A stretch of 64,000 bases of DNA from a virus, in the UHGV virus genome UHGV-0039337; one strand, written 5' to 3'. A program made the translations under genes and the position numbers. Position 1 is the stretch's first letter. Each line of letters starts with the position of its first letter. The notes under the pieces were generated by a model. The model was not told the DNA's origin. It saw only the letters and a program-made list of their open reading frames with translations, and did no database searches. Shown in pieces: positions 17,697-44,063 of this stretch.

Positions 17697-17702
17697 TATT
17701 AT

Positions 17703-20984: not shown

Positions 20985-21039
20985 TATATCTACCTCTCTT
21001 TTATCCTTATATACTGTAATTAAATATTACTACACTTAG

Positions 21040-23702: not shown

Positions 23703-23715
23703 TCAATCACTCCTT

Positions 23716-24291
23716 TTATTCTATTAAAGATATAATTTGATTATTCATATTTCTATATTGATATATATTGCTTCTTGTCATGTTGTCTAAAGTATATAAA
23801 GTTACTTTTAAATCATCAAATGTAGTATATTCTAAATCGTCAATTTTCGGTATTTCTATTATTTCGTCTTCGTCATTCATTTCATAGAAATCTGCTTCGT
23901 TTCCTTCCCAAAAACATGAATTATCTATATCTTTGTCGTTCATATATACATGTATTTCTCCTTCAGCGTAATCTATATTAGTTAATCTTTGTTCCTCGGA
24001 AAGCGCTATTAATCCTCTATCTCTATCTAGATTATCTTCTAATGGTTTAAAACCTAATTGTTCATAAACATATTGTCTATCTTCTATATTTACTCTAGCA
24101 CCTATGTTTTCTAATGCTTTTATAATATTAGTTTCTAGCACTCTTGTTTTTGCAATAGAGTTATATGACCTTATAAAATCTTGAGCTTTGTAATATGCAG
24201 ATCTAGAATAAGCACTCCAATGATAATATACGTTTATGATAGGTGCTTCTCCTCTATTTTTATATATATTCATAATTAATCTTTGTCCCAT
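23716..24291 (-). CDS. hypothetical protein
   Basis: 191-aa ORF immediately downstream of the recombinase gene. Confidence 0.35.
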   Translation of the reverse strand: MGQRLIMNIYKNRGEAPIINVYYHWSAYSRSAYYKAQDFIRSYNSIAKTRVLETNIIKALENIGARVNIEDRQYVYEQLGFKPLEDNLDRDRGLIALSEEQRLTNIDYAEGEIHVYMNDKDIDNSCFWEGNEADFYEMNDEDEIIEIPKIDDLEYTTFDDLKVTLYTLDNMTRSNIYQYRNMNNQIISLIE

Positions 24292-24336
24292 AAGTTCACC
24301 TCTAAAAGAAATAAGCCTATAAACATAGGCTCATTA

Positions 24337-25545: not shown

Positions 25546-25562
25546 ATAATCTCTCCTTTCAA

Positions 25563-25910
25563 TTAATTAATTTTATTTATATAATCATTTAATGATTTTA
25601 TAAGCTCGTCTATTTCTTTTGTAAGAGATTCAGGTGGCGCTGAATTAAAACTTTTATAATAACTATCTACAATATTTTTTTTACGTTGTTCTAATATATA
25701 TACATTAGCTCTAAAAATTGGTTTTGCTGCATTCATATTTACGCTTTTATCTTCTGTCTCTATATATTGTATTAATTCTTCAAGGAAAAGAGCTACAACA
25801 TTACGTACAGCATCTTTTCCTTCATACATCGAAGAAGAAGCAGCTACGCCTATAAAATTAGTTATAGCTGCTCTTAATGATTCTTGTTCATTTGTATATG
25901 GTTTTGCCAC
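25563..25910 (-). CDS. hypothetical protein
   Basis: 115-aa ORF. Confidence 0.35.
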   Translation of the reverse strand: MAKPYTNEQESLRAAITNFIGVAASSSMYEGKDAVRNVVALFLEELIQYIETEDKSVNMNAAKPIFRANVYILEQRKKNIVDSYYKSFNSAPPESLTKEIDELIKSLNDYINKIN

Positions 25911-28342
25911 TATTCCTCTACCTCTTCTATTTGCTCTTCAGGTAAACAAGTAACAGCTACTACATAGTCGTCTTTATCTAAGTTAATTAATTTAGTGCCT
26001 GTAGTATGTCTACTAGAATGAGCAATATTATTCGCATCTATTCTTATAGTTTTGCCATTAGCTGTAGCTATAAGTATATTAGCATTATCTAATATAAACG
26101 CAGATACAACAGGACCTGTTTTATCACTTACTTTATGACAGAAAATACCTTTGCATCCTCTAGACTTAGAAGCAAATTCTTCTTCATTAGTTGCTTTAGC
26201 TATACCATATTTAGTTACAGTAACTACTTCTGTATTAGAATGCATAGATAATATACCTATTACTTCGTCACCTTCACTTAGTTTTATACCTTTAACACCT
26301 CTAGCTGATCTACCACTAGGTCTTACTGTATTAGAGTTGAATCTAGTAGATAAACTATTAGCAGTAAGTATCATAACTTCTTCGTCGTCTTTAGCTAATA
26401 AAGCTCCTACTACTTCATCATCATCTACTAATCCCATTACTTTAGTAACGTTAAATCTATTAGATAATTGTGCTAATGCTAAACGTTTTATTTGTCCTTT
26501 TTTACTTACAAGAACAAGATAGCGTTCTTTGTCATTAAGATTAGTAGCTAATGTTTTAATAGGATACTCTCCTTCTTCCATAGATACAAAGTTAGCTAAA
26601 TTTTTACCACGAGAGGACTTATTTACTTTAGGTATTTTATATGCTTTAACTGTATGACATCTACCTGTATTAGTTATAAATAATAAGTCATCTTTACTGT
26701 TAATAGTAAATAAATCTACTACTAATTCATCGTCTTTAGTATCGGCTCCTTTAGAACCTTTACCAGCTCTTCTTTGTTTATTATATTCATTAGTAGCTAC
26801 AGATTTTATATTTTGATCACTTGTAACAGTAACTATTAATTCTTCATCTTTAATTAGATCTACTAATTCTATTTCATCTTCTAGCTCTATTGCTGTACGT
26901 CTTTCATCTCCATATTTATTTTTCATTTCGGTAAATTCTTCTATTAATTGTTTTAATATTACTTCGTCGTCTTTTGTTAGGTTTATTAAATGAGGTAGTT
27001 GTTCATACATATTAGATAAATCTGTTTCTACTTTTTCTTCAGATACTTTAGACAATCTTGATATTTTCATATCATATACATATTTAGCTTGTTCTTCTTC
27101 TAAGTCAAGTTCATCTTGTAATGATTGTATAGGATTATCTTCTTCTCTTATAATATGAATAACTTTATCTATATTTTCTATAGCTTTTTGTACGCCTTCT
27201 AATATTAATATATTATGATTTAATTTAGTTAAATCATATTGAGAGCGTCTGCGTACTATTTCCATACTGTGTATAATAAATTGTTCAAGACAATCAAGTA
27301 TGCCGAATTCTTTAGGCATTCCGTCTAATAATGCTTTAACATTATAATTTATAGATATTTGTAAATCTGTTTTAGATAATAAATGTTTTATTACTAAATC
27401 TGGATTAGCACTTTTTTTAAGTTTAATTTGTATATTACAGTTTTCTGTACGTTTAGTTACATCTAAAACTTCACGTATGCCTTCTACTTTATTATCTATA
27501 CGTAAATCATCTATTTTGTTTACTAGTTTTAATTTATTTACTTGGTATGGTAGTTCTGTAATTCTAATTATTTTATTATGTCTTTTATCTTCTTCTATAT
27601 CGTATTTACATCTTAAAATTACTTTTCCTTTACCTTCGCTTATTATTTTAAGCCATTCTTTATTAGAAGTTATTATTCCCCCATCTGGAAAATCTGGGCC
27701 TTTTATTATTTTAGCTATATCACTACATTCATACTCTTCATCTTTTAATGCTTTATCTATCATAAATAATATCGCATCATATATTTCTGTTAAATTATGA
27801 GGTGGTACATAAGTAGACATAGACACGGCTATACCGTTTGTTCCATTAGCTAAAAAGTTAGGCAATAAAGATGGTAACGTCATAGGTTCTTTTAAAGTAT
27901 TGTCAAAGTTATCCATATAATTAACAGTATCTTTTTCTATATCTTTACATACAGCATCTCCATATTTAGATAAATGACATGTAGTATATCTATAAGCGGC
28001 AGCTTTAAATCCATCTCTATTACCAAATGAAGTAGTTGTATCTATTAAAGGATATCTCATTACCCAATTTTGTCCTAATCTGGTAAGCGCATCATATAAT
28101 GAGATATCGCCGTGTGGATATGTCGTTGCTAATACTGAACCTACTACTTTTGCACATTTTTTTTCTGGATCTGTACTTTTCATTCCATGAGTATACATAT
28201 CCCATATTATTTTTCTACCTGATGGTTTTAATCCCGTATTTACATCAGGTATTGCTCTATCTCCTATAACAGCTAATGCATAAGCTTTATATCTAGGAGC
28301 TAGAGCGTCGCCTACTGATTTTTCTATAATATGTTCAGCCAC
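25910..28342 (-). CDS. gyrA: type II topoisomerase subunit A (GyrA-like, with C-terminal beta-pinwheel region)
   Basis: 810 aa. AIPDVNTGLKPSGRKIIWDMY and VVGSVLATTYPHGDISLYDALTRLGQNWVMRYPLID match the GyrA signatures (R.LPDVRDGLKP..R, HPHGD). Confidence 0.8.
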   Translation of the reverse strand: MAEHIIEKSVGDALAPRYKAYALAVIGDRAIPDVNTGLKPSGRKIIWDMYTHGMKSTDPEKKCAKVVGSVLATTYPHGDISLYDALTRLGQNWVMRYPLIDTTTSFGNRDGFKAAAYRYTTCHLSKYGDAVCKDIEKDTVNYMDNFDNTLKEPMTLPSLLPNFLANGTNGIAVSMSTYVPPHNLTEIYDAILFMIDKALKDEEYECSDIAKIIKGPDFPDGGIITSNKEWLKIISEGKGKVILRCKYDIEEDKRHNKIIRITELPYQVNKLKLVNKIDDLRIDNKVEGIREVLDVTKRTENCNIQIKLKKSANPDLVIKHLLSKTDLQISINYNVKALLDGMPKEFGILDCLEQFIIHSMEIVRRRSQYDLTKLNHNILILEGVQKAIENIDKVIHIIREEDNPIQSLQDELDLEEEQAKYVYDMKISRLSKVSEEKVETDLSNMYEQLPHLINLTKDDEVILKQLIEEFTEMKNKYGDERRTAIELEDEIELVDLIKDEELIVTVTSDQNIKSVATNEYNKQRRAGKGSKGADTKDDELVVDLFTINSKDDLLFITNTGRCHTVKAYKIPKVNKSSRGKNLANFVSMEEGEYPIKTLATNLNDKERYLVLVSKKGQIKRLALAQLSNRFNVTKVMGLVDDDEVVGALLAKDDEEVMILTANSLSTRFNSNTVRPSGRSARGVKGIKLSEGDEVIGILSMHSNTEVVTVTKYGIAKATNEEEFASKSRGCKGIFCHKVSDKTGPVVSAFILDNANILIATANGKTIRIDANNIAHSSRHTTGTKLINLDKDDYVVAVTCLPEEQIEEVEE

Positions 28343-28356
28343 GCTATCTTCCTCCC

Positions 28357-28752
28357 CTATAATATCGTATAATCTTCTTCAGACATTATATATTGTCTTT
28401 TTTCTGTATTCATTACTTTGCTATTCATACACATAGAAACTATTTTATTAGCTTCTTCTGCGTCTTCAATTGTTATTTTAATTAGTGTTCTATGTTCTGG
28501 ATTCATAGTTGAATCCCATAAACCTTCTGCTGATAATTCACCTAATCCTTTTAAATAAGTTATATTTAATTTTTTATTAGGATATTGTTGTTTAATAGAA
28601 TTTAATTCAGCATCATCTATAGCATATAACGTAGTATTTTTATCTACTATAATCTTATATAATGGTGGGCATGATAAATATAAATAACCTTCTTCTATTA
28701 TAGGTCTAAAATATCTATAAAATAATGTTATATACAAAGTAGCTATATGATA
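28357..28752 (-). CDS. gyrB: type II topoisomerase subunit B (GyrB-like), exon 3 (C-terminal about 131 aa)
   Basis: In-frame extension GYHIAMYITLFYRYF...LSCPPLYKI...YLKGLGELSAEGLW matches the GyrB C-terminus (GSHIRTLLLTFFYR ... PPLYK ... YKGLGEM). Confidence 0.75.
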   Translation of the reverse strand, partial: YHIATLYITLFYRYFRPIIEEGYLYLSCPPLYKIIVDKNTTLYAIDDAELNSIKQQYPNKKLNITYLKGLGELSAEGLWDSTMNPEHRTLIKITIEDAEEANKIVSMCMNSKVMNTEKRQYIMSEEDYTIL

Positions 28753-30013
28753 ACCCGATTACACCCTCGGTTTCCCGATATTTATCAGGGGTCTAGACTA
28801 TACCTTCGCCATTTCAGGCGCACTGAACGTAGTCGTTGGACTCCTCCTGTTCGGAGTCGGCTGCTGATTTTCCATTAATTCACCCTTAGCACGTATTTAA
28901 TAATACGCTTTTGTCTCAGCTTAGGTAATCCTCAATACTTTTTTCTGCTTTCGCAACATTCATATAAGTTTGTTTCATCTTATATTGTAGTGATTAAGGC
29001 TTTAGGAATTCCCAGCAAGCGGTCAGTGTAATAATCCTATAGGTTATTATTCCCTATAAGACGACTATATTTATAAATTAATTATATTTTAAATAGAGAT
29101 TTAAATAACGTTCAAATTTGCGTTCCATATATATAGTACAATCTAAATATAACCAACTCATTATTTGATATACTTGATTATCACCACATAATCTTAAACT
29201 TTGAACGTTTCCGTCTCCGTTTTTATGTCTTTTTTGTAATTTTACATTCTCTTTATTTAAAATTGTTTTAAGCGTTTCTAAAAATTCTGTAGTACCTAAT
29301 ATACTAATATCATAAGTATGATATTTTTTATCTCCTGATATTGACAGAGATCCATCTCCATCAAAATATCCTCTAATAAAATGTCTTTGTAATTCTTTTG
29401 GTACTATATCCTCTGAAGGAAATAAACAATGATTGGTTTTATCAAGGCTAAAACCTTTATTAACTAAATCTTGATACATCTTTTTGCTAGTTATAACCAT
29501 TTTTGACTCTCTTGTAATACAATCAAAACTTTTATTGTAATGTTCATAATCTCTTATTGGATACGTAGAGTCTATATCTTTTTTAAATTTTTCTATCATA
29601 TTACGATCTTTTGTGGCTAACGTTAATCCTATTTCATTCCCTCTATTTGTTATATATCCATCAGCCATTAAAAAACCCAACCAATAAGCTTTATGTTCTG
29701 TATCAATAACTTCAAAGTAATTATCATTTACTTTATTTCTTCTTAAATCATCAGGACTTTTCTTTTGATATAGTCCTGCTTTAATTAAAACTGGATAAAT
29801 AGTTTGAGGTTTTCTATCTTTTAACGATTCTTTATTCTCACAAATCCATTTTACGCTATGTCCCTCTTTATATTTATTGCATATCCATTTTTTATCTTCT
29901 TCAGAAAATGATTTTCTTATTCTTTTTGTCAATATATTCACCCCAATATTTAGTTTCTTTATCTAAATATTACGGTGAACGTAGACGCTTATAATAATTA
30001 TTTATAAATCTTA
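28753..30013 (-). mobile_element. group I intron (about 1.26 kb) in gyrB at the Toprim DxDxD|G codons
   Basis: Exon 2 ends DADVD (GAT, U) followed directly by a stop. Exon 3 begins GYHI after tcG. A LAGLIDADG ORF starts about 72 nt into the insert. A 325-nt structured block 28753-29077 lies 3' of it. Confidence 0.65.
29078..29941 (-). CDS. LAGLIDADG homing endonuclease (intron-encoded)
   Basis: 287 aa with YWLGFLMADGYI and FIRGYFDGDGSL. Same family as the UvrD- and clpX-intron HEGs. Confidence 0.85.
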   Translation of the reverse strand: MNILTKRIRKSFSEEDKKWICNKYKEGHSVKWICENKESLKDRKPQTIYPVLIKAGLYQKKSPDDLRRNKVNDNYFEVIDTEHKAYWLGFLMADGYITNRGNEIGLTLATKDRNMIEKFKKDIDSTYPIRDYEHYNKSFDCITRESKMVITSKKMYQDLVNKGFSLDKTNHCLFPSEDIVPKELQRHFIRGYFDGDGSLSISGDKKYHTYDISILGTTEFLETLKTILNKENVKLQKRHKNGDGNVQSLRLCGDNQVYQIMSWLYLDCTIYMERKFERYLNLYLKYN

Positions 30014-31194
30014 ATCAACATCGGCATCGCTCATTATTATTATCTTATGATATCGTAAGTTATCTATATTAAAATCTTCACCTATACCACACTCTAAACT
30101 ATATAATATATCTTTTAATTTATCAGATGATAATACTTTATCTAAAGTCATTTCTTCTACATTTGGTATTTTCCCGAATACAGGTAATATTGCTTGAGTA
30201 TTCTTGTCACATGCGGTAGTTGCTGTAGAAGCTGCACTATCACCTTCAACTAAAAATATTTCGCAAGCTTCAGGATCTTTACTAGCACATTTTACTAATT
30301 TTTCAACTTTTTTATTAGCGAAATTTTTATTCTTTCTTGCAGCTTCTTTTGCTTTATAGGCGGCTTCTCTGATCTTGTTTGATTCAATAACTTTATTAAG
30401 TATATTATCTTTATCATTCGGTAGTTTATCAAATTGATCTTCACAAAACTCCTTTACTTCACTATACAATATGCTTGCTATTACAGGCATATTTAAATAA
30501 TCTTTTCCTTGTCCTATATAGTTAGGATCTGGTACCTTGACACTAACTACTGCTATTATACCTTCACGTGTGTCTTCTGCTGTTAATTGTGTTTTAGATT
30601 TAGGATATTCATTTTCAAAGCAATCTTTAACAGCTGTAGCTATACCACGTTTAAATCCTGTTATATTAGAAGATTTACCATCGGTATTTATAACATTATT
30701 AGTAAACGCTATTATATTATCACTATAAGCCTGAGTCCAAGCAAAAGCTACAGATATTTCACACGATTTATCATTATCCATTTCAACTGATTTAGTTAAG
30801 AACCAAGGATCATGAATACTTTCTTTGTTAGCTGTAAGTTCTTCAACATATGCTTTAACACCCTCTGGATAATTATAGATTTCATGTATGTTATAGTCCC
30901 CATATTCTATATCTACTTTAATAGTAAGTTCAGGATTAAGATAGCATATTTGTTTCATTCTGCTATTAATAGCTGGTATATTAAAATCATCTTTATCAGC
31001 CCATATTTCAGGATCTGGTTCACATTGTATAAGAGTCATAGTAAAGTCTTCACGTGATATTTCTTCTACTTCGTGTAATTTATGAGTCACTAATCCTTGT
31101 TCAAATTCCATATCATATACTTTACCACCAGTATATATTTCAACATGGAACCATTTAGATAAGAAGTTTATACATGATGCTCCTACGCCATTTA
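30014..31194 (-). CDS. gyrB: GyrB-like subunit, exon 2 (ATPase C-part, transducer, Toprim start)
   Basis: The frame extends upstream of the first Met to NGVGASCINFLS (GyrB HGVGVSVVNALS). Contains EGVKAYVE, DTREGIIAVVSVKVPDPNYIGQGKD, and Toprim EIFLVEGDSA ... KIIIMSDADVD. Confidence 0.75.
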
Positions 31195-31869
31195 CAATAG
31201 TTCACATAGGTTCGCTATTCCTATGCCGCACTATTACGTGCAGCCTCTAGTTTTCACTAGGGATCGGACTATATCATCACCCTTTAATAAGGGGTTCTCC
31301 ATTTCCATTTAATAGGTAATTAAGAGCCTTATTACGGCTCACCTAACCGCTTGGCTGTACTCTACTCACTTCTGTTACTATCAGAATCGCTTTCGATAGT
31401 CTCTGAACTTTCATTTATTCCATTTAAATAACCAAATTCTTGTTCTTTTTCTCTTCTAAAATCAATACACATCTGTTTAGCTTGTTCATAACCATATTTT
31501 TTACACGATCTTGATATTCTACATTTTTTATGTTCATTATCTTTTATTTCTGCAATCCAAGAATCTCTACTTTTATCATATCTTACACCTTTTATTCCGC
31601 TTGTGTTACATTCTCTTAATGATGTATTTTTTAAATTTTCGTGTCTTGTTGTTATTCTTAAATTGTTTTTACGATTATCCAGACCGTTATGATTTAAATG
31701 ATCTACAACAATGTCGTAACCTTCTACGTCTAATATTAATCTGTGCAAATATATTGGTTATATAAAATAAATGTTTAGCTGCTGATTGCCATATGCTTAT
31801 GCACTTAGGTTTCCAGCAATTAAAAGAATTTTTCGATACACATTACTGCGTAAAGGGACTAAATAGTTA
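31195..31869 (-). mobile_element. group I intron (about 0.68 kb) in gyrB ATPase-domain codons (..SAGL|NGVG..)
   Basis: Exon 1 reads K-S-A-G-L then a stop 2 codons later. Splicing GGAT|TAAATGGC restores AGLNGVGAS, which is colinear with GyrB GGLHGVGVS. The 5' exon ends in U and the intron ends in G. An HNH-AP2 ORF sits in the middle, with structured flanks 31195-31361 and 31749-31869. Confidence 0.6.
31362..31748 (-). CDS. HNH homing endonuclease with AP2-like DNA-binding domain (intron-encoded)
   Basis: 128 aa. DHLNHNGLDNRKNNLRITTRHENLKN (HNH_3) followed by GVRYDKSRDSWIAEI (AP2-like). Confidence 0.7.
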   Translation of the reverse strand: MHRLILDVEGYDIVVDHLNHNGLDNRKNNLRITTRHENLKNTSLRECNTSGIKGVRYDKSRDSWIAEIKDNEHKKCRISRSCKKYGYEQAKQMCIDFRREKEQEFGYLNGINESSETIESDSDSNRSE

Positions 31870-32236
31870 ATCCAGCTGATTTAACACCTTCTTCAAATTT
31901 AGTACCAGCTTTTAATCTAGACATACATAATTCAGCTATGGTACATCCTGGTATTTCATCTGATTCTTCTGTAGGTAACGCACCTGCGCTATCTGTTACT
32001 GTTATCCATCCTTGTTTATCTATATTTACTGTTATCTCTTTCTTGGTATATAAATGACTACTTTCGTCATTAACTAGAATATCTACACCATTATCTACTA
32101 ATTCATATATACAATAGTCTTTATTTGGTATATACATTCCCGGTCTAAGTCTTACGTGTTCTCTGTCGTCGAGAAGTTTAAAATCATCTGCTTGTCTTAC
32201 TTTTTTAACCATTTTAGGTTTTTTAATTTTACTCAA
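31870..32236 (-). CDS. gyrB: GyrB-like subunit, exon 1 (N-terminal ATP-binding about 122 aa)
   Basis: DDFKLLDDREHVRLRPGMYI, ELVDNGVD, ITVTDSAGALP, AELCMSRLKAGTKFEEGVKSAGL match the GyrB N-terminal motifs (RKRPGMYIG, E.VDN..DE, V.DNGRGIP, HAGGKFD..YKVSGGL). Confidence 0.75.
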
Positions 32237-32251
32237 TCTATCACCTCATAA

Positions 32252-32527
32252 CTATATATCTTGTTCTAACCATTTTGAATAATCAAACATTTTACTACTA
32301 TCGTGATTTATTTCTAATAATATTTTTTTAAAATATTTATATAATGCATATTCATCATATTCATTTAATATAACAACAGGTATATTTACTATTTTGTATT
32401 CCACTTTATTTATTGTTAATTCTATATGAAAAAATTCTACACCTTTTTCTTTTAACAATTCTTTCATAAAGTTAGTATCTAATTCAGTATATTCTCCTGA
32501 TATTGTTTTTGTATATGTTCTAATCAT
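32252..32527 (-). CDS. hypothetical protein
   Basis: 91-aa ORF. Confidence 0.3.
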   Translation of the reverse strand: MIRTYTKTISGEYTELDTNFMKELLKEKGVEFFHIELTINKVEYKIVNIPVVILNEYDEYALYKYFKKILLEINHDSSKMFDYSKWLEQDI

Positions 32528-33312
32528 TTATTAAACACTTCTTTAAATGCTTTATGATTTTCTGAACTTTTATTTGGTATAGCAAATACTATAGTCTTAA
32601 ATAACTTAGGATATTTATCTAATATTTCTTTAAAGATTTTGGCTACTTCATATGGATCTTGTCCAAATACACCGCATCCATAAGCTCCTAGTATTAAAGT
32701 ATTTACATCATTCTTTACAGCCATGTCTATTATAAATTTTATTCTGCTTTTTAATACTTTATAATTTTCTTTGTTAGATACATTGCAATATTTCTGTGCT
32801 GCAGTTTTATTAGGCGCTGCACATGTTATAACATCACAATATACATATCTATCTTCTCTTTTAAATAATACATCTGGAGTGTATAATCCTCTGTTAAGAT
32901 ATAATGCTTTGTTCTTATGTTGATTATTCAATGAATAAAAGTCAGGTATTTCTTTTAATACATTATACAAATATGATTCATGACATAAGCATTCTTCTTG
33001 TGCTTTTGATCCTTTTAAAAACATACCGCCTGGATTCTTATATGAAGAAAAATTTAACACTGCAGTTATTTCATCTTTGTATTCAAATATTGCAGTTACA
33101 CTATCAAGATCACATATTATAATGTCAGCGTTTTTATCACGATTATTGTATTTTTCTAGTTCCATATTAAAACCTGTATTATATAAGTATGTCTCATCTA
33201 TACAGTCTTTAATTTCTTCTTTAAATTTTTCTTCCATTTGTTCAGTATGTTTTTTTGCTACTTGTGCTCTTTGTTCTTTATTGATCCAATATTGAGAAGT
33301 ATTATAAGCCAT
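32524..33312 (-). CDS. macrodomain protein of the microbial PARG-like family (DUF2263 / TIGR02452-like)
   Basis: 262 aa. LNFSSYKNPGGMFLKGSKAQEECLCHESYLY ... CAAPN ... LILGAYGCGVFGQDP fits the DUF2263 signature (NFAS..NPGGGFL.G..AQEE.LCR.S.LY ... AAPN ... LVLGAWGCGVFGNDP). Confidence 0.6.
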   Translation of the reverse strand: MAYNTSQYWINKEQRAQVAKKHTEQMEEKFKEEIKDCIDETYLYNTGFNMELEKYNNRDKNADIIICDLDSVTAIFEYKDEITAVLNFSSYKNPGGMFLKGSKAQEECLCHESYLYNVLKEIPDFYSLNNQHKNKALYLNRGLYTPDVLFKREDRYVYCDVITCAAPNKTAAQKYCNVSNKENYKVLKSRIKFIIDMAVKNDVNTLILGAYGCGVFGQDPYEVAKIFKEILDKYPKLFKTIVFAIPNKSSENHKAFKEVFNK

Positions 33313-34559: not shown

Positions 34560-35222
34560 TTATTCTTCATCGTCATTAGGGAATATAAAATCAAATAAAG
34601 CTTCTGCATTAGCATCATCTATAAAATCTGTGCTATGCTCTATAGCATTTATTTCAAGATTACTAAAGTCTACTATATATGCTATTAATTGTTGTTCTGT
34701 TAATACAGTTGCCATACATGCAGCATATGCTCTAGGTAATCCTGGATTCATGTAATTAAATTTTTCTTTATATGCTTCAAAACATTCATTTTCTGTTAAA
34801 TATAATCCTATAGAATCAGCTGTATTTTCATCTAATCCTTCATCTTTTAATTCATTATAAGCATCTGTTATATCTACTTCTTCATCGTTGTCATTTAACA
34901 CTACTCTTACAACTTCTGCATCTTCAAATATTTTATCAGCATTTTTAACATTAGTAGAATCTTCTTCTACTGTTTCAGTCTCAGCAGTTACATCTTCAGG
35001 TTCTTCTACGTCTTCAACTATAGATTCTTCTATTTCATCTTCTGCTAATTCTTCTTCGTGTACTATACCAGTTGGTATATTTGATACAGTGCACATATCA
35101 ATGAATATTTCAATGTACTTACCTCTAAGTTCTGCTCTCTTAGCAACATCTTCTACGCTTTCTAATTCTTCTGCCATTTTGTCTAGTTGGCTAACTATAT
35201 AATCTTTTTGTTTTTTATTCAT
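34560..35222 (-). CDS. hypothetical highly acidic protein
   Basis: 220 aa with a Glu/Asp-rich central repeat. Confidence 0.35.
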   Translation of the reverse strand: MNKKQKDYIVSQLDKMAEELESVEDVAKRAELRGKYIEIFIDMCTVSNIPTGIVHEEELAEDEIEESIVEDVEEPEDVTAETETVEEDSTNVKNADKIFEDAEVVRVVLNDNDEEVDITDAYNELKDEGLDENTADSIGLYLTENECFEAYKEKFNYMNPGLPRAYAACMATVLTEQQLIAYIVDFSNLEINAIEHSTDFIDDANAEALFDFIFPNDDEE

Positions 35223-35341
35223 TAATCATTTCTCCTTTTATTATATAATATTATTTTTTTACTAGATTTTTTTATCATTATAGTGTATCATAATAGTATA
35301 ATCCCTTTTAAGTGATTACATTACTCCATACTATAATAATA

Positions 35342-35378
35342 AGGGGCGATCCGTTTTGCGGTCGCCCCTCTCTCTTTC
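35342..35378 (-). terminator. GC-rich hairpin terminator downstream of clpX exon 2
   Basis: aggggcgatccg/cggtcgcccct perfect hairpin. T-rich sequence follows on the minus strand. Confidence 0.45.
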
Positions 35379-35380
35379 TA

Positions 35381-36250
35381 TTATTCAATTGCTTCTTTTG
35401 CTGTTTCTCTTAATATATCTACTGTTAAATCTTCACGTACTATTACTTTTTTTACTGTAGGATCTCCTGGAACCTCAAATTTGGTTTCAAATAATATATC
35501 TTCCATTACTGTTCTTAATGCTCTAGCACCCATTTTTCTTTCTTTTGCTTTTTGTGCTATTTTAGGCAATGCACCTTCTTCTATGTCAAAATCTATACCA
35601 TCCATTTTAAATTCTTCTTTATATTGTTTTAATAAAGCATGTTTAGGTTGAGTTAGAATCTTAACCATGGCTTCTTCACTTAATTCATGATATACAGCTA
35701 ATAATGGACATCTGCCTATAACTTCTGGTATTATACCAAATTCTACTAAATCATCTGGTATGACTTGAGATATAACATTATTATAATCCATTTCTCCTTT
35801 TGATTCTGGCTTACCATTAAACCCTATGCCTACAGATCCTTTTTTAAGTCTTTTATTTATTATTTCTTCTAGACCTACAAATGCTCCACCTAATATAAAT
35901 AATATATTAGTAGTGTCTATTTTAACGCTTTTAGAATCTAATTTATTTAATTTAACGTCCATTTCGCAGCCTTCAATCATTTTTAGTATAGATTGTTGTA
36001 CTGCTTTACCGTTAACATCTTTGTTATCTCCTCTTGCATCAGATGCTTTAATTTTGTCAAATTCATCTATAAATACTATTCCTTTTTGTGTTTTTTCTAC
36101 GTCTCTACCTGCTGCGATATATAAATCTTTTATCATATCCTCTGTATCACGTCCAACATATCCTGTGCTTGAGAAAGAACTGGCGTCTTGTATAGTAAAT
36201 GGTATATCCATACAAGAACATATAGCTCTTATGGTTTCACTTTTCCCACT
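35381..36250 (-). CDS. clpX: ClpX ATPase, exon 2
   Basis: In-frame extension SGKSETIRAICSCMDIPFTIQDASSFSSTGYVGRDTE...GIVFIDEFDKI aligns with ClpX [37 protein letters not shown]...GIVYIDEIDKI. Confidence 0.8.
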   Translation of the reverse strand, partial: SGKSETIRAICSCMDIPFTIQDASSFSSTGYVGRDTEDMIKDLYIAAGRDVEKTQKGIVFIDEFDKIKASDARGDNKDVNGKAVQQSILKMIEGCEMDVKLNKLDSKSVKIDTTNILFILGGAFVGLEEIINKRLKKGSVGIGFNGKPESKGEMDYNNVISQVIPDDLVEFGIIPEVIGRCPLLAVYHELSEEAMVKILTQPKHALLKQYKEEFKMDGIDFDIEEGALPKIAQKAKERKMGARALRTVMEDILFETKFEVPGDPTVKKVIVREDLTVDILRETAKEAIE

Positions 36251-37441
36251 CGTTCGTTATTAGCGCATAGTTTTTTATCTATGCCTCTGGGCCATTACAG
36301 CCATTTTCATCGGTGTGTTAATTCACACTCAGTCTAGCGTACTTGTTTACGTAATTTACTTGGACAAAACGTAGGACGGCCTCTTGGTGCATTATTTCAG
36401 CACTACGCGTTGCGCCTGACGTGTTGACATATCAACACTCACTATATCACTATAGCTTATCCACTTTTATAGTGGCGCCTTCGGGCTCGAATACACTGTA
36501 TGCAATTTACAATCATACTTTACGTGATCTTCGCTTAATTCCATCCTCATAATCTAGAGTCTTCATTGTCCTTTTGGCTCTAGACGGCAGTAATCTAAGT
36601 ATTTTTTATATTTTCTATCTAAATATATTGTAGCATCTTTATATAACCATTTTAAAAATGCTTCTAACGCTTTAGTACTTGATATATTTAATTCAGGTAT
36701 TTTATAGTCATATTCATAAATTCTAATATGATCTATGGTTTCTTCAACATTATATTTAATAGTTTCTATTAATGATTCTAAAACTGTTCTATCATAGCAT
36801 ATAATTCTAAAAGTAGTACTACCTTTAGTTCTTATGTTTAGGTTTCCATCTCCATCGTATAATCCTCTTATAAAATGATTCATATATTCATTAGGTATAT
36901 CTGGAACAACCCATCCATATGTTTTGTTATGCACTACTCCTAGTTCTTTTAATTTTGTTGCTATAATTTTATCTCTTATATTTATTCTATAATAATCAGT
37001 TCCATTTATTGTTTTTATTCCTACTTTGTGGCTGCTTTCTATATCTGCTTTAAATTTTTCTATGTGTTCTTTATCTTTTATACATATGTCGAGTCCTCCA
37101 TCTTCTGATAAATATCCATCAGCAAATATAAAACCTAACCAATAAGCACTTTTTTCATTCCATTCATTAAAGAAATTACTATTAACTGATTTTTTATTAT
37201 AATGTTGAACTATATTAACACCTGCGGCTTTCATTCTAATAGAAAGCGTACCTCTGTCTCTTTTTAACTGTTTTGCTATTTTAGTAATACTTAAGCCTTC
37301 ATTAAACATATTAGTGGCTTGTTGTATCTCTTCATCTGATATCCTCAAGATAATCACTCCATATTGTGTATTTATCTCTATATTACCGCTACCAGATGAT
37401 CTAATAGAAAATATTGTAAATTTTACTTAGATTATTTGTTT
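36251..37441 (-). mobile_element. group I intron (about 1.19 kb) in clpX inside the Walker A codons (GPTG|SGKS)
   Basis: Exon 1 ends GPTG (GGT, U) then KQII-stop. A LAGLIDADG ORF starts about 84 nt into the insert. The 312-nt structured block 36251-36562 shares the core (ggacggcctcttggtg ... ctacgcgttgcgcctg) with the UvrD and AAA+ introns. Exon 2 begins after acG. Confidence 0.65.
36563..37357 (-). CDS. LAGLIDADG homing endonuclease (intron-encoded)
   Basis: 264 aa with YWLGFIFADGYL and FIRGLYDGDGNL. Over half its residues look identical to ORF 4044..4850 by eye. Confidence 0.85.
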   Translation of the reverse strand: MIILRISDEEIQQATNMFNEGLSITKIAKQLKRDRGTLSIRMKAAGVNIVQHYNKKSVNSNFFNEWNEKSAYWLGFIFADGYLSEDGGLDICIKDKEHIEKFKADIESSHKVGIKTINGTDYYRINIRDKIIATKLKELGVVHNKTYGWVVPDIPNEYMNHFIRGLYDGDGNLNIRTKGSTTFRIICYDRTVLESLIETIKYNVEETIDHIRIYEYDYKIPELNISSTKALEAFLKWLYKDATIYLDRKYKKYLDYCRLEPKGQ

Positions 37442-37843
37442 ACCGGTTGGGCCTAAGAATATAATATTTGATTTATCTATTCTTAATTTATTAGATGCAC
37501 TAGGATCTTCTTCTAATCTTTTTATTCTTTTAGTATGAGAATATAGTTCTGTTGCTATAGTTACTTTAGGTCTTTCTTGTTCTATAACCCAATCATCAAG
37601 ATATTTCTTTATATCTCTTGGAGTATTTATTTCAGTTTTTGCTTGTTCACTATCTTTTTCTAATAAAACTTTTTGTCTTTCTTCAAATTTTTCATATCCT
37701 AATTTTAAACAATTAGAACATATTCTTATCTTTTTGCCATCTACATTTGCTTTAGATTTGTATAAAACAATACCTTTTTCACTTAATTCTTCTTCAGTAT
37801 ATTCTTTACCACAGAAATTACATTTTTTAGTATTCTCAGCCAT
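37442..37843 (-). CDS. clpX: ClpX ATPase, exon 1 (zinc-binding N-domain to Walker A start)
   Basis: CNFCGK...CSNC zinc finger. RDIKKYLDDWVIEQERPKVTIATELYSHTKRIKRL...KSNIIFLGPTG aligns with ClpX PKEI...LD.YVIGQE.AKK.L.VAVYNHYKRL...KSNILLIGPTG. Confidence 0.8.
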
Positions 37844-37871
37844 TATTAATCACTCCCTTTATTTTTATTTA

Positions 37872-38489
37872 TTATATATCATTTCTTGAACTTATTATTT
37901 TATCTACTAAACCCATTTCTAAAGTTTCTTCGGCATTTAACCATGTGTCTAATTTCATCATTTGTCTAAAGTTTTCTAATGATACTTTTCTTGTGTAATC
38001 TGGGTTTAATCTGCTATATAATTTTTCTGCTAATATTTTATTTAAATATTTACTGTGCTCAAAACTAGCTTCCATGTCGTGAACTTTTCCTTGACTGCCT
38101 GAAGATACTTCATGGACCATTACAGAAGATGTAGGTAATATAAATCTTTTACCTGGTGCTCCTTGTGATAATAGGAACGCACCCATAGATGCACTCATAC
38201 CCATACATAAAGTACCTACGTCACAAGATATAAAGTTCATAGTATCGGCTATTGCTAAACCATCGTGTACGCTTCCTCCTGGTGAGTTTATATATAAGAA
38301 TATGTCTTTTTTAGGATCTTCTGCTTCTAAAAATAATAATTGTGCACATATTAAGTTTGAGCTTACATTTGTTACTTCGTCGCCTAAAAATACTATTCTG
38401 TCTTTTAATAGTCTAGAATATATGTCATATGCTCTTTCGCCTTTATTTGTTTGTTCTATTACAGTTGGTATTAATGCCATAAAAAACAC
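37872..38489 (-). CDS. clpP: ATP-dependent Clp protease proteolytic subunit ClpP
   Basis: [33 protein letters not shown]...YINSPGGSV...[12 protein letters not shown]...HEVSSGSQG is canonical ClpP. Confidence 0.85.
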
Positions 38490-38494
38490 TCTCC

Positions 38495-39310
38495 TTATTT
38501 ATTTAATTCTTTTATTATTTTTAAATAATCGTCATTTGTAATTCTCGATCTCATAAATTGTTTGGCTCTTTTCAATTGTCGTGATACCCACGTTTTATTT
38601 CTTTTATATTTTTTGGCTATTTCTACTTGTGTTAAATCTTTGAAATAATGCATCATTACTATGTCGTATGCTAATTCATCATATTCTTTTAATAATTGTA
38701 ATTTTTGCTTAACAAATTCTTTAGCTTCAAATAAAACTATATCTTTTTCTTCATAGTCTTGACACACTGCATCTGTCACTTTACTTTTAGATGCAGAGCT
38801 TGTCATTTGATTAATAGAATTAGAGTGCGCTGACTCTATATACATTGCGTTTACACTTAAGCCATTATGCTTTTGATTTATTTGTCTAGTAAGTTTTACA
38901 TAATGTTGATACATTAAAGTAGATGCGTATGCTATAAATCCTGCATTTCCTTTTACAATACTATATGTGTTAACGGCTTTTAACCAGCCTAATCTTATTC
39001 TAGCAAATAATTCTGTATTTTCTTTATCAACACTATTACTGTACTCAGCTTTATAAAAATCATTAGCATATTTATTGATACAAAAATGTATACTATTTTT
39101 AGTTTTATTATACAATGCAGTCCAATATTCATCTTCATTATATTTTTGACACAATAGAACTAATTGTTCATTTGATAGAAGGCTAGGTTCAATTTGTGAA
39201 TCATGTATATCTGTTATTCTTTTATCTATTGCATCAAGATAACGTTGGTCATTGGTTTTATTGTATAATTTAACGATTTGCAACTCTGTTAAGCTATTTA
39301 ACTCTTCCAA
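38495..39310 (-). CDS. sigma-70 family RNA polymerase sigma factor
   Basis: 271 aa. C-terminal region-4 [35 protein letters not shown]. Region-2-like segment mid-protein. Confidence 0.6.
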
Positions 39311-39347
39311 TATTATCCCTCAATTATAAAGCAAAAAAGAAGCTGGT

Positions 39348-40169
39348 TTATTTCAGCTTCTTTAATGTCTCTATTATAAAATCCTTAAACTCTATAGGCA
39401 CTACTATTTCATTCTTTTCATCCATAATAATTAATGTACCGTTATCTTTTTCTATAGTAATCATATTATTGCTATTTGCATATGAATATACCTCATAATC
39501 ACCTTTGTCTTTAGACATTGGTAAAATACAAGATAATGGAGCTTCTTTTAGATCTATTGATAACAATCCTTCATCGTCTTCATCTTCGTCATCATTTATT
39601 TCATCTGTTCCTAAAACGGCTTTTAATAAATCTGATATAGCTTTATTAGCTTCTTCTTCAATACTAGAAGAGAATCCATTATCCTCTGTATCTTTTGACA
39701 GAGATTTTTCAAATTCCTTTTTAAAATTTTCTTTATATTCTTTCCATTCTTCATCTGTTAATAATACATTTTCTTCACTATCCATATAAATAGTAAAGTT
39801 TGTATATTTTCTTGCATCTGATATTACATTTATAGAATATATTTTATCAGATTTATTTGCTAGTTTTACTATATGATTACGTACATAATCTAAATCTACA
39901 TCAAAACCATTTACTATTATAGTATTCGTTATTTCAGTATCATTTATTTCTGTTAATACATTAAGTAAATTACTTTCTTTAGTGAATTTAAAATTATCTT
40001 CATCTATATCATCACCGTATATTTCTGTTTCTATTCCTAATTCCATGTTAGCATTAAAAACTACAATAGGATCTATTATTATATCTGATTTTGATAATTT
40101 AACTCCACTTTCAAATATGCTTCTTTCTATATTTTCTTTTGGTACTATAGTATACTTAATCCTGCTCAT
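39348..40169 (-). CDS. hypothetical acidic protein
   Basis: 273-aa ORF. Confidence 0.35.
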   Translation of the reverse strand: MSRIKYTIVPKENIERSIFESGVKLSKSDIIIDPIVVFNANMELGIETEIYGDDIDEDNFKFTKESNLLNVLTEINDTEITNTIIVNGFDVDLDYVRNHIVKLANKSDKIYSINVISDARKYTNFTIYMDSEENVLLTDEEWKEYKENFKKEFEKSLSKDTEDNGFSSSIEEEANKAISDLLKAVLGTDEINDDEDEDDEGLLSIDLKEAPLSCILPMSKDKGDYEVYSYANSNNMITIEKDNGTLIIMDEKNEIVVPIEFKDFIIETLKKLK

Positions 40170-43979: not shown

Positions 43980-44063
43980 TGGAGCCAATAGTAGGAATTG
44001 AACCTGCATCTGTAAAGATAAAATAAATTATTTTTACCGTTCTTACAATTGAACTATATCGGC
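43980..44063 (-). tRNA. tRNA-like gene with encoded CCA and atypically expanded anticodon arm (identity undetermined)
   Basis: The minus strand reads GCCGATA-TA-GTTC-AATTGTAA-GAAC-G-[GTAAA-16nt-TTTAC]-AGAT-GCAGG-TTCAATT-CCTAC-TATTGGC-T-CCA. The acceptor, D-arm and T-arm (GTTCAATTC T-loop) are good. The anticodon region is 26 nt instead of 17. Confidence 0.5.

What the first reader, a model, noticed from the sequence alone, without database searches (positions are those of the whole stretch)
35381..37843. Phage-encoded clpX interrupted by a LAGLIDADG intron exactly inside the Walker A motif
Exon 1 ends GPTG and runs into a stop. Exon 2 resumes SGKSETIRAICSCMDIPF, and the two parts reconstitute a full ClpX with its zinc-binding N-domain. 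ClpP lies directly downstream. Expression of the viral protease ATPase is therefore splicing-dependent, a possible regulatory checkpoint.
Basis: partly seen in the sequence, partly recalled or inferred. Interest (0 to 1): 0.75.

Follow-up and report, generated by a model that had tools for sequence, protein, structure and literature searches.

The report
Mobile group I intron splitting phage clpX
A large uncultivated phage carries a clpX gene cut in two, inside its ATP-binding motif, by a 1191-base self-splicing group I intron that encodes its own LAGLIDADG homing endonuclease; this is a well-documented example of a known kind of selfish element, not a new mechanism.

Summary
On the minus strand, clpX exon 1 (37843..37442) ends GPTG. 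A 1191-nt insert (37441..36251) follows, and exon 2 (36250..35381) resumes SGKS. The joined 423-aa product passes both NCBIfam ClpX equivalog cut-offs. It is 100% identical to an uninterrupted ORF found in the same gene order on other phage contigs, where the DNA lacks exactly these 1191 nt.

The insert is a group I intron:
- U precedes the 5' splice site and pairs with a conserved GCC(G) guide.
- The last intron base is G.
- The P3/P7 pseudoknot, P4, P6, P8 and P9 helices are supported by covariation in 28 relatives.
- A covariance model of the family matches it (76 bits, E 4e-14) and also matches the self-splicing Twort orf142 introns.

Rfam's group I model misses this intron. The family P7 reads GCRUA/UAYGC where the Rfam consensus reads GACUA/UAGUC.

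The 261-264-aa LAGLIDADG gene lies in the P1 loop. Its end overlaps the guide sequence and P2.

clpP lies upstream of clpX in the direction of transcription, not downstream. Nothing supports a "regulatory checkpoint": near-identical phages differ only by presence or absence of the intron, which points to a selfish homing element.

The window holds at least two more introns of this family and further split genes. Novelty: a new member of a known kind.

The parts
37872..38489 (-). clpP, immediately upstream of clpX in the same transcription direction (28-nt spacer)
   Evidence: Pfam CLP_protease E 1e-60. NCBIfam ClpP models reach 232-244 bits, below their equivalog cut-offs.
37442..37843 (-). 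clpX exon 1 (134 codons: Cys4 N-domain and the first half of Walker A, ending ...GPTG with GGT; the last base U37442 is the 5' splice-site U)
   Evidence: The junction is confirmed by the intron-less allele.
36251..37441 (-). Group I intron, 1191 nt (5' AAACAAAU... to ...AACGAACG 3'; terminal G at 36251)
   Evidence: Exact insertion relative to the intron-less alleles L135-L140. Family covariance model R1 matches 36417..36251 at 76.1 bits, E 4e-14, and the match ends on 36251. Covariation supports the helices.
36563..37357 (-). LAGLIDADG homing endonuclease gene inside the P1 loop. The ORF tool gives a GTG start at 37357. The likely real start is TTG at 37348, 8 nt after GGAG 37360..37357 (261 aa). 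N-terminal HTH; two LAGLIDADG motifs (LGFIFADGY, IRGLYDGDG). The stop codon 36565..36563 lies in the P2 loop.
   Evidence: Pfam LAGLIDADG_3 and HTH_38. PHROG 4645 'endonuclease' E 6e-46. PDB 2dch 'putative homing endonuclease' E 3e-5. 51% identical to the endonuclease of the uvrD intron in the same window. Intact in L141, with 31 synonymous against 18 amino-acid-changing codon differences.
36585..36588 (-). Internal guide sequence GCCG (P1 3' strand). G36588 pairs with U37442, C36587 with G37443, C36586 with G37444 and G36585 with C37445. U36589 can pair with A37441. ACU 36591..36589 (plus UU 36593..36592) can pair with exon 2 AGU(GG) as P10.
   Evidence: Read from the sequence. The GCC guide and an exon ending in GGU are seen in all 10 family introns whose 5' splice site could be fixed from the protein. 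In relatives the guide changes together with the exon: ACGGGU/GCCCGU in L030, CACGGU/GCCGUG in L029, UGGGU/GCCCA in L035.
36553..36584 (-). P2 hairpin (UCUAGAG 36584..36578 with CUCUAGA 36559..36553)
   Evidence: Sequence. Equivalent hairpins with different sequence occur in L001, L002, L003, L061, L065 and the window's uvrD and AAA introns.
36374..36546 (-). P3 (GGAUGG 36546..36541 with CCGUCC 36379..36374), enclosing J3/4 AAUUAA, P4 (36533..36530 / 36491..36488), P6 (36479..36476 / 36421..36418) with three branch hairpins P6a, P6b and P6c, the P7 5' strand, and P7.1
   Evidence: P3 is 100% paired in 28 sequences, with 4 of 6 pairs showing double changes. P6 is 91% paired and P6b 93%. The P4 register is shifted by 1 nt in the two window introns (CGAA/UUCG here, CGAG/CUCG in the uvrD intron). 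A C-G to U-A double change in P6a (36474/36462) is seen in L141.
36337..36408 (-). P7 (GCGUA 36408..36404 with UACGC 36341..36337), enclosing P7.1 (36403..36400 / 36390..36387), the P3 3' strand and P8 (36373..36369 / 36352..36348). P3 and P7 cross, forming the group I pseudoknot.
   Evidence: P7 is 100% paired, with A-U in 22 sequences and G-C in 6 at the variable pair. P8 is 96% paired, with all 5 pairs covarying. The same helices were found by RNAalifold on 56 family members.
36251..36328 (-). 3' peripheral hairpins P9 (36328..36324 / 36317..36313), P9a (36302..36299 / 36293..36290) and P9.1 (36284..36279 / 36270..36265), then the tail CGCUAAUAACGAACG ending in the terminal G at 36251
   Evidence: P9 is 92% paired, P9a 100% and P9.1 75%. 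Model alignment shown.
35381..36250 (-). clpX exon 2 (SGKS... through Walker B DEFD, pore loop GYVG, ClpP-docking loop GIGF and sensor GARALR, to the stop codon)
   Evidence: Motifs read directly from the translation.
35342..35369 (.). G+C-rich hairpin 12 nt after the clpX stop codon; likely end of the clpP-clpX transcription unit
   Evidence: Terminator scan. The only other terminator-like site in 35100..39500 lies upstream of clpP at 39363..39336, so none lies inside the intron.

Best explanation
The 1191 nt between clpX codons 134 and 135 are a mobile group I intron. clpP and the interrupted clpX are most likely transcribed together. The intron RNA folds into a Twort-like (subgroup IA-type) ribozyme. 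Exon 1's ...CGGU pairs with the guide GCCG to form P1. An external guanosine attacks after U37442. The 3' end of exon 1 then attacks after the terminal G at 36251. The ligated mRNA reads GGT|AGT and is translated into a complete 423-aa ClpX with an intact Walker A, GPTGSGKS. The LAGLIDADG protein encoded in the P1 loop is a homing endonuclease. It would cut intron-less clpX alleles at ...AACYGGT|AGTGGA..., and repair would copy the intron in. Shown here: the exact insertion boundaries, the existence of intron-less alleles, the ribozyme helices by covariation, membership of a large phage intron family, and intact endonuclease and exon reading frames. Inferred: that splicing and homing actually occur. 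The element is best read as a selfish passenger made harmless by splicing, not as a regulator.
For: (1) The boundaries obey the group I rule: U at -1 and G as the last intron base. They coincide with the only gap in a blastn alignment to intron-less alleles that are 95.6-98.3% identical in the flanks.
(2) The spliced product equals the natural uninterrupted protein P0001 at 100% over 423 aa, in the same gene order PhoH - hypothetical - sigma-like - ClpP - ClpX - hypothetical - SSB.
(3) It passes the ClpX equivalog models as one stretch.
(4) Covariance model R1 was built from 56 other family members and did not include this intron. It matches 36417..36251 at 76 bits, E 4e-14. It also matches the Twort orf142 introns at 37 and 34 bits, E 6e-6 and 2e-5. 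That record is annotated as containing group I introns, and Rfam RF00028 recognises those introns at 64-101 bits.
(5) My hand-derived structure, counted on 28 sequences: 82.5% of cells paired against 64.7% in shuffles (0 of 500 shuffles reach it) and 31-48% when partners are slid. 44 of 59 pairs show double changes. The crossing helices P3 and P7 are 100% paired.
(6) The 3' 312 nt have 41% G+C in a 27.6% G+C window. The minimum-free-energy z-score is -2.7.
(7) In a diverged intron-bearing phage (L141) the ribozyme is 96.5% identical while the exons are 84-87% identical. There is a C-G to U-A double change in P6a and a G.U to A-U change in P6.
(8) Between the two intron-bearing alleles the exons show 86 synonymous-only codon differences against 44 amino-acid-changing ones. 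L141 also splices in frame to 423 aa. The gene is therefore kept functional with the intron in place.
(9) Splicing of predicted group I introns in gut jumbo phages has been seen in metatranscriptomes, for 37 of 76 introns (PMC12880540).
Against: Rfam's Intron_gpI model gives no hit on this intron, even at E<=10 on 371 nt, although it hits the Twort introns strongly. The likely reason is that the family P7 reads GCRUA/UAYGC where the Rfam consensus reads GACUA/UAGUC, and that P5 and P6 carry large insertions. One compact family member, L054, reaches 30 bits, E 3e-4, at the right place. P1 is short: 4 pairs with the exon plus 1 with the intron. P4 needs a 1-nt register shift compared with most relatives. 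No RNA data exist for this phage, so splicing is inferred. E-values from R1 are rough because calibration was shortened.
Confidence: 0.9

Rival explanations
1. The intron is a regulatory device. Splicing is conditional (on timing of infection, GTP level or a host factor) and gates production of the phage ClpXP protease.
For: Full-length ClpX cannot be made without splicing. The endonuclease ORF overlaps the guide sequence and P2, so translation of the endonuclease and folding of the ribozyme could in principle interfere with each other. Nothing else supports this reading.
Against: Near-identical phages lack the intron altogether: L135 differs at 2 of 1272 exon positions. The intron is therefore dispensable. 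The same intron family sits in many unrelated genes, both in this window (uvrD-like helicase, AAA ATPase) and elsewhere. It carries an intact homing endonuclease gene. No ligand-sensing extra domain is visible.
Confidence: 0.06
2. The insert no longer splices. clpX is then either a pseudogene or a 'gene in pieces' whose two halves are translated separately and assemble, as in endonuclease-split phage genes.
For: Exon 2 contains an in-frame ATG (MDIPF..., ORF 36211..35381). Gene callers on public assemblies report that 276-278-aa fragment as a protein (P0022). Rfam does not recognise the ribozyme.
Against: The break lies inside the P-loop. The fragment starting at MDIPF would lack SGKSETIRAICSC, that is the Lys and Ser of Walker A, so no complementation could restore ATP binding. 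I noted no ribosome-binding site before that ATG. The ribozyme is conserved at 96.5% with compensatory changes and fits the family model end to end. The exons stay under purifying selection in intron-bearing lineages.
Confidence: 0.04
3. The intervening sequence is an intein or a group II intron rather than a group I intron.
For: LAGLIDADG endonucleases also occur in inteins and in a few group II introns. P-loops are favoured intein sites (my own knowledge).
Against: The exon 1 frame stops 4 codons after the junction (GKQII*), and upstream of exon 2 its frame reads TAA TAA CGA ACG. There is therefore no continuous reading frame, and no Cys, Ser or Thr at an intein N-terminus. There is no reverse transcriptase and no GUGYG...AY ends. 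No Rfam group II hit was returned.
Confidence: 0.005

Closest known systems
Staphylococcus phage Twort orf142 group I introns (subgroup IA2; self-splicing, ribozyme structure solved)
   Same: Same order of elements: J6/7 ...GCAACG, P7, a peripheral hairpin between P7 and the P3 3' strand, P8, J8/7 GAAAAUAUA-like, then ...CUGAAC, a P9 hairpin, a P9.1 hairpin and a ...GAUAACAxxxxG 3' tail. Family model R1 hits two of the three Twort introns at E about 1e-5. Both are phage protein-coding introns with U at -1 and a terminal G.
   Different: P7 is GCGUA/UACGC here and GACUA/UAGUC in Twort. Rfam RF00028 finds the Twort introns (64-101 bits) but not this one. This intron has a three-branched P6, an extra P9a hairpin, and an endonuclease gene in the P1 loop; the orf142 introns are about 250 nt and have no ORF.
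T4 td, nrdB and sunY introns and other classical phage group I introns with homing endonucleases
   Same: A mobile group I intron in a conserved site of a phage gene, carrying an endonuclease gene in a loop, with presence/absence polymorphism among related phages.
   Different: According to the review PMC3984707, phage introns most often carry GIY-YIG, HNH, PD-(D/E)xK or EDxHD enzymes; this one carries a LAGLIDADG enzyme. The host gene, clpX, did not turn up as an intron host in my full-text searches. The ORF lies in L1 and overlaps the guide sequence; in the T4 introns it lies in P6 or P9 loops (my own knowledge).
Group I introns of gut jumbo ('Jug') phages and crAss-like phages
   Same: Uncultivated gut phages with many genes split by group I introns and endonucleases. 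Jug phages average 18.5 introns per genome, with splicing seen in metatranscriptomes (PMC12880540). A family-consensus 3' domain finds crAss-like phage genomes by blastn.
   Different: The split genes named in the passages I read are terL, nrdD and DNA polymerase, not clpX. Only 17 LAGLIDADG enzymes were counted among hundreds of endonucleases there. This phage is not shown to be a Jug phage: related contigs are 185-278 kb, against 360-402 kb for Jug phages.

Membership tests
Group I intron | 5' splice site follows a U that forms a U.G wobble with the internal guide sequence in P1 | tested here: met
   U37442 faces G36588, and GG/CC and C/G pairs extend the helix. An exon ending in GGU and a GCC guide are seen in 10 of 10 family introns with a defined junction. 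The guide covaries with the exon in L029, L030, L035, L100 and L102. The pairing is inferred from sequence, not probed.
Group I intron | Last intron nucleotide is G | tested here: met
   G36251. The insertion boundary is fixed by the intron-less alleles. The R1 match ends on this base.
Group I intron | Conserved core: P3-P8 and P4-P6 domains with the P3/P7 pseudoknot, supported by covariation | tested here: met
   P3, P7 and P9a are 100% paired, P8 96%, P6 91%. 44 of 59 pairs have double changes. 0 of 500 shuffles reach the observed pairing or covariation. Slid controls give 31-48% paired. P4 fits only with a 1-nt register shift (41% paired in the aligned register).
Group I intron | Recognised by the curated Rfam model RF00028 (Intron_gpI) | tested here: not met
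   No hit at the gathering score or at E<=10. Positive control: the Twort introns score 64-101 bits. One compact family member (L054:540-775) scores 30 bits, E 3e-4. A curated-model test was failed, so the filing rests on the other rows.
[quoted passage not shown]
   Model R1, built without the Twort introns or this intron, hits Twort orf142 introns at 37 and 34 bits, E 6e-6 and 2e-5, and this intron at 76 bits. E-values are rough because calibration was shortened.
Group I intron | Guanosine-dependent self-splicing with exon ligation | not testable with these tools
   Needs in vitro transcription with GTP and Mg2+, or RNA-seq.
Subgroup IA (IA2-like) | Extra P7.1/P7.2 element between P7 and the P3 3' strand | tested here: inconclusive
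   One hairpin (GUGC/GCAC, 36403..36387) sits at that place. Most relatives have a longer hairpin there (GGUGAA...AUAUAAUCC). I could not run the subgroup-specific models.
LAGLIDADG homing endonuclease | Two LAGLIDADG motifs with acidic residues in a single-chain enzyme, and a family profile match | tested here: met
   Motifs LGFIFADGY and IRGLYDGDG are read directly. Pfam LAGLIDADG_3 scores 29.3 bits against a cut-off of 22.5. PHROG 4645 matches at E 6e-46. PDB 2dch matches at E 3e-5. Cleavage activity is not testable here.
ClpX | Full-length match to the ClpX equivalog models above the curated cut-off | tested here: met
   NF003745 scores 390.4 against 359. TIGR00382 scores 371.6 against 370.75, which is marginal. 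Each is one stretch over residues 3-410. GYVG, GIGF, Walker B and GARALR are present in the translation.
ClpX | N-terminal C4 zinc-binding domain | tested here: inconclusive
   CxxC...CxxC is present (C8, C11, C42, C45), with a spacer longer than I recall for the E. coli protein. Pfam zf-C4_ClpX scores 17.9 bits, below the cut-off of 27.
Intein | Continuous reading frame through the insert with splicing residues at both junctions | tested here: not met
   There is a stop codon 4 codons after the junction, and two stop codons in frame before exon 2.

The most novel reading that the evidence does not exclude
This Rfam-missed intron family may be tied to sites ending in the glycine codon GGU by an almost invariant guide sequence (GCC). 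That constraint could explain why its members sit repeatedly in glycine-rich nucleotide-binding loops of unrelated ATPases: ClpX GPTG|SGKS; a ClpB/ClpC-like protein GPTGTG|KT; UvrD-like helicases TAGAG|KT; and an AAA ATPase ...NLGG|. If so, the ribozyme's own exon-pairing requirement, and not only the endonuclease's DNA specificity, directs spread to new genes. Spread could occur by reverse splicing, or by endonuclease paralogs (51% identical within this window) retargeting among GGU sites.
Probability: 0.25. Interest if true: 0.5.

Novelty: new member of a known kind. Interest (0 to 1): 0.3.

Why it matters
Annotation: gene callers report this clpX as two or three unrelated ORFs, and the standard Rfam model does not flag the intron. 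Phage ClpX, helicase and ATPase genes of this clade are therefore fragmented in databases. The covariance model and the P7 variant described here would recover them.

Biology: this adds clpX to the list of phage genes colonised by mobile introns. It gives a clean natural pair of intron-plus and intron-minus alleles that differ at 2 exon bases, which is well suited to testing homing and any fitness cost. It does not change how group I introns or ClpXP are thought to work.

Tried and rejected
1. Rfam on the region, on the 371-nt core alone and on the whole window returned no group I hit. I therefore built the case from relatives.

2. megablast and blastn of the locus and the intron core against GenBank phages found nothing useful. 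tblastn with ClpX found only uninterrupted phage ClpX genes at 40% identity or less.

3. The search for related loci with ClpX exon 2 in IMG/VR found no relative. The endonuclease protein was the productive query.

4. I first looked for the guide sequence in the 84 nt before the ORF and found no acceptable P1. The guide lies after the ORF, directly 5' of P2.

5. There is an 8-bp pairing between the intron 5' end (AUAAUCUA, 37435..37428) and the P2 3' strand plus J2/3 (UAGAUUAU, 36556..36549), and similar pairings occur in L001. I rejected it as a core helix. It would cross P1, and the A-to-U change at 37432 in L141 has no compensating change.

6. My first P7 guess paired GCUAG with CUAUGC. I dropped it once covariation showed that CAUAG/CUAUG is a local hairpin (P9.1) and that P7 is GCGUA/UACGC.

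7. Pairing between CCGAAGGCG and CAGGCGC is not supported: L002 varies without compensation.

8. R1 with filters off over 17000..33000 gave no significant hit. The intervening sequences in the RNR and topoisomerase genes therefore belong to other families or are not introns of this type.

9. The G at exon 2 position +6 (AGTGGG, against AGTGGA in all six intron-less alleles) is not an intron-linked signature. Intron-bearing L141 has A at that position.
Full report
**1. What is in the sequence**

All genes in this part of the window run on the minus strand.

- clpP occupies 38489..37872 (Pfam CLP_protease, E 1e-60).
- An ORF starts 28 nt further on at 37843. It reads MAENTKKCNFCGK...IIFLGPTG and then GKQII-stop.
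- About 1.2 kb further on, the frame that holds ORF 36211..35381 can be extended upstream to 36250. From there it reads SGKSETIRAICSCMDIPF....
- Joining 37442 to 36250 is in frame and gives 423 aa with the Walker A motif GPTGSGKS.
- This product matches both NCBIfam ClpX equivalog models above their cut-offs, as one uninterrupted stretch over residues 3-410: NF003745 at 390.4 against 359, and TIGR00382 at 371.6 against 370.75.
- The pore loop GYVG, the ClpP-docking loop GIGF, Walker B (IDEFD) and GARALR can be read in the translation.
- The four N-terminal cysteines are present. The zinc-finger profile scores below its cut-off.

One statement is reversed: clpP is upstream of clpX in transcription, not downstream. 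A G+C-rich hairpin at 35342..35369 follows the clpX stop codon. The only other terminator-like site in 35100..39500 lies upstream of clpP, at 39363..39336, so none lies inside the insert.

**2. The insertion is real and precisely bounded**

A search of the large protein collection with the in-silico spliced protein returned P0001: 423 aa, 100% identical, seen on several contigs of up to 278 kb.

The contigs that encode it carry the same neighbours: PhoH-like, a hypothetical gene, a sigma-like gene, ClpP, ClpX, a hypothetical gene, SSB and PARG. There the clpX ORF is uninterrupted.

At the DNA level:
- L135 differs from the window's joined exons at only 2 of 1272 positions.
- L136 to L140 differ at 21-25 positions.
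- blastn of the window against L138 aligns on both sides of the junction and leaves a gap of 1190-1191 nt in the window.

The one-base ambiguity arises because the intron and exon 2 both begin with A. It is resolved by the group I rule, since only the 37442|37441 and 36251|36250 choice puts U before the 5' splice site and G at the intron's end.

Other metagenomic contigs (L141-L145, several of them from pig-gut metagenomes) carry the same intron at the same site. In these:
- the exons are only 84-87% identical to the window;
- the ribozyme core is 96.5% identical;
- the endonuclease gene is 93.3% identical;
- the intron 5' segment is 91.7% identical.

**3. What the insert is**

*The ORF.* ORF 37357..36563 is a LAGLIDADG protein with an N-terminal helix-turn-helix:
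- Pfam LAGLIDADG_3 above its cut-off, plus HTH_38;
- PHROG 4645 'endonuclease', E 6e-46;
- PDB 2dch, E 3e-5.

Its likely start is TTG 37348, 8 nt after GGAG. This start aligns with the N-terminus of a 51%-identical paralog elsewhere in the window.

*The RNA part.* The last 312 nt of the insert have 41% G+C in a window of 27.6%. Rfam gave no hit, so I looked for relatives.

- The endonuclease protein found 13 IMG/VR loci.
- nhmmer showed that the DNA after those genes resembles the clpX insert.
- Reading the loci showed other interrupted genes: a ClpB/ClpC-like gene with two introns (L001), a UvrD-like helicase (L002) and an AAA ATPase with an ORF-less 431-nt insert (L003).
- In every case exon 1 ends in GGT and the insert ends in G.
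Nearly all of the listed matches share the same downstream architecture.
- A consensus of that architecture finds crAss-like, Staphylococcus, Bacillus and Clostridium phage genomes by blastn, mostly in unannotated gaps.

**4. Link to proven group I introns**

From memory, the architecture resembled the Twort ribozyme. I tested this. My recalled sequence matched Twort at 97%. I then fetched record AF132670, whose orf142 is annotated as containing group I introns.

I aligned 56 family members, leaving out this intron and the Twort introns. RNAalifold predicted five helices, and 17 of 23 pairs carry compensatory changes. I built covariance model R1 from that alignment.

R1 results:

| Target | Bits | E-value | Note |
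|---|---|---|---|
| clpX insert, 36417..36251 | 76.1 | 4e-14 | Matches end to end and stops on the predicted last base |
| Twort orf142 intron | 37 | 6e-6 | |
| Twort orf142 intron | 34 | 2.4e-5 | |

Rfam's own model finds all three Twort introns at 64-101 bits. It finds a compact family member, L054, only below threshold (30 bits, E 3e-4), though at the right place.

Comparing consensus sequences gives the likely reason. The Rfam R and S elements read GUUCAAAGACUA and AAGAUAUAGUC, so P7 is GACUA/UAGUC. This family reads GCAACGCRUAG and AAAAKRUAYGCU, so P7 is GCRUA/UAYGC. In addition, the clpX intron has long insertions in P5 and P6.

**5. Structure of this intron** (RNA sense, window coordinates)

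- **P1:** exon C37445-G-G-U37442 pairs with guide G36588-C-C-G36585, giving U.G at the splice site. A37441 can pair with U36589.
- **P10:** exon 2 AGUGG can pair with UUACU 36593..36589.
- **P2:** 36584..36578 with 36559..36553. The endonuclease stop codon lies in its loop.
- **P3:** 36546..36541 with 36379..36374.
- **J3/4:** AAUUAA.
- **P4:** 36533..36530 with 36491..36488.
- **P6:** 36479..36476 with 36421..36418. It closes three hairpins, one of them capped by the tetraloop GUGA.
- **J6/7:** AGGCGCAA.
- **P7:** 36408..36404 with 36341..36337.
- **P7.1:** 36403..36400 with 36390..36387.
- **P8:** 36373..36369 with 36352..36348.
- **J8/7:** AACAAG.
- **P9, P9a and P9.1:** three hairpins, followed by the tail ...UAAUAACGAACG ending at G36251.

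I counted this structure on an alignment of 28 family members:
- 82.5% of cells form standard pairs, against 64.7% in column shuffles (0 of 500 shuffles reach it) and 31-48% when partners are slid by 1-3 columns.
- 44 of 59 pairs carry double changes.
- P3 and P7, the two strands of the pseudoknot, are paired in all 28 sequences. P3 has four covarying pairs.
- P8 has five covarying pairs.
- P4 scores badly in the aligned register. The two window introns use a register shifted by one base: CGAA/UUCG here and CGAG/CUCG in the uvrD intron, which is itself a compensated change.

A cruder family-wide test asked whether the 7 nt after ACCAMGAG have a complement upstream. It found 37 perfect cases among 96 elements, against a mean of 12 when the strands were permuted.

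The guide sequence is supported by comparison:
- GCC is present 5' of P2 in all members examined.
- It is kept even where the endonuclease reading frame differs (L002) or where there is no ORF (L003).
- Longer guides change together with the exon: ACGGGU/GCCCGU in L030, CACGGU/GCCGUG in L029, UACGGU/GCCGUA in L102, UGGGU/GCCCA in L035.

Within the clpX intron lineage itself, L141 shows a C-G to U-A double change in P6a (36474/36462) and a G.U to A-U change in P6. A plain energy fold recovers P3, P4, the P6 branches, P7.1, P9 and P9.1, with z = -2.7.

**6. How it most likely works**

*Shown:*
- a precise insertion in a codon-boundary position of Walker A;
- a ribozyme core that fits a large family related to proven self-splicing introns;
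- intact endonuclease and exon reading frames;
- intron-less alleles in near-identical genomes.

*Inferred:*
- The clpP-clpX transcript folds and splices by the two guanosine-initiated transesterifications typical of group I introns, and yields mRNA for full-length ClpX.
- The LAGLIDADG enzyme cuts intron-less alleles during mixed infection, and the intron is copied in by repair.

Support for continued function:
- Between two diverged intron-bearing alleles, 86 codons differ synonymously and 44 change the amino acid. Both alleles splice in frame.
- The endonuclease gene shows 31 synonymous against 18 amino-acid-changing differences.

**7. Rivals**

- **Regulatory role.** This cannot be excluded, but it has no positive evidence. 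It fits poorly with the presence/absence polymorphism and with the same family sitting in many unrelated genes.
- **Dead insert or 'gene in pieces'.** This is unlikely. The break removes the Walker A lysine and serine from any fragment starting at the internal ATG, and the RNA is conserved with compensated changes.
- **Intein or group II intron.** Both are excluded by the in-frame stop codons, the boundary sequences and the absence of a reverse transcriptase.

**8. Context and novelty**

The window is a DNA-metabolism block of a large uncultivated phage. It carries helicases, RNR, ligase, a UvsX-like recombinase, topoisomerase II, an endolysin and many ORFans. Relatives are held in IMG/VR as 185-216 kb viral contigs.

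The window is rich in split genes:
- R1 finds two more introns of the same family, in a UvrD-like helicase (again in Walker A) and in an AAA ATPase.
- Reading the ORFs shows split RNR and topoisomerase II genes with endonuclease ORFs between the pieces. R1 does not recognise these.

Intron-rich gut jumbo phages have been described, with splicing confirmed by metatranscriptomics (PMC12880540). Phage group I introns have been known for decades, and LAGLIDADG enzymes are the less usual cargo in phages (PMC3984707). Full-text searches found no report of an intron in a phage clpX.

The finding is therefore a new, well-supported member of a known kind. It has practical value for annotation, because the Rfam model misses the family, and modest biological novelty.

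Noticed in passing
window 3753..5000 (minus strand): A second intron of the same family splits a UvrD-like helicase inside its Walker A (exon 1 ...TATAGAG ends with GCAGGT near 4935; exon 2 begins AAAACT = KTRVIV... near 3752 and continues into ORF 3720..1972). It carries a LAGLIDADG gene (4850..4044) that is 51% identical to the clpX-intron enzyme. R1 scores 105.5 bits on 3917..3753.
   Followed up: partly
window 7046..9811 (minus strand): A third intron of the family splits an AAA ATPase after ...EVEKNLGG (exon 1 9811..8777; exon 2 begins YASSNASD near 7619). This one carries an HNH endonuclease gene (8710..7874) instead of a LAGLIDADG gene. R1 scores 111.6 bits on 7795..7617. The homologous intron in L003/L004 has lost the ORF but keeps a remnant of its C-terminus.
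   Followed up: partly
window 17703..20984 (minus strand): The ribonucleotide reductase large subunit appears split (20984..20535 ends ...GQKGRRG; 19589..17703 resumes MISMDVSHPDIEEFI), with a 176-aa ORF (20333..19803) in between that I took for an endonuclease from reading it; I did not scan it against any library. Neither R1 (filters off) nor Rfam recognises the intervening sequence, so its nature (another intron family?) is open.
   Followed up: partly
window 28357..32236 (minus strand): A topoisomerase II/GyrB-like gene lies in three pieces (32236..31859; 31111..30011 ending ...MSDADVD; 28737..28357). They are separated by an HNH-like ORF (31748..31362) and a LAGLIDADG ORF (29941..29078, 32% identical to the clpX-intron enzyme). 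R1 does not match these intervening sequences.
   Followed up: partly
window 43983..44063 (minus strand): Rfam calls a tRNA here (47.7 bits, E 4e-7), but ARAGORN reports no tRNA anywhere in the window.
   Followed up: no
L001 700..4150: A ClpB/ClpC-like two-ring ATPase gene in a 216-kb viral contig carries two nearly identical copies of this intron family, each with its own LAGLIDADG gene. One lies after ...GAKYRG and the other inside the second Walker A (GPTGTG|KT).
   Followed up: partly
L030 2780..3845: One viral contig has a family member (3292..3497) flanked by two Rfam-recognisable group I introns (3624..3845 at 94.5 bits; 2780..2952 at 33 bits). That makes three introns within about 1.1 kb.
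   Followed up: no
window 37428..37435 with 36549..36556: The intron 5' end (AUAAUCUA) can form 8 pairs with the P2 3' strand plus J2/3. Similar pairings exist in L001 and L002. It would compete with P2 and cross P1. One substitution in L141 is not compensated, so I treat it as unsupported, but an alternative (pre-splicing or translation-linked) conformation is not excluded.
   Followed up: partly
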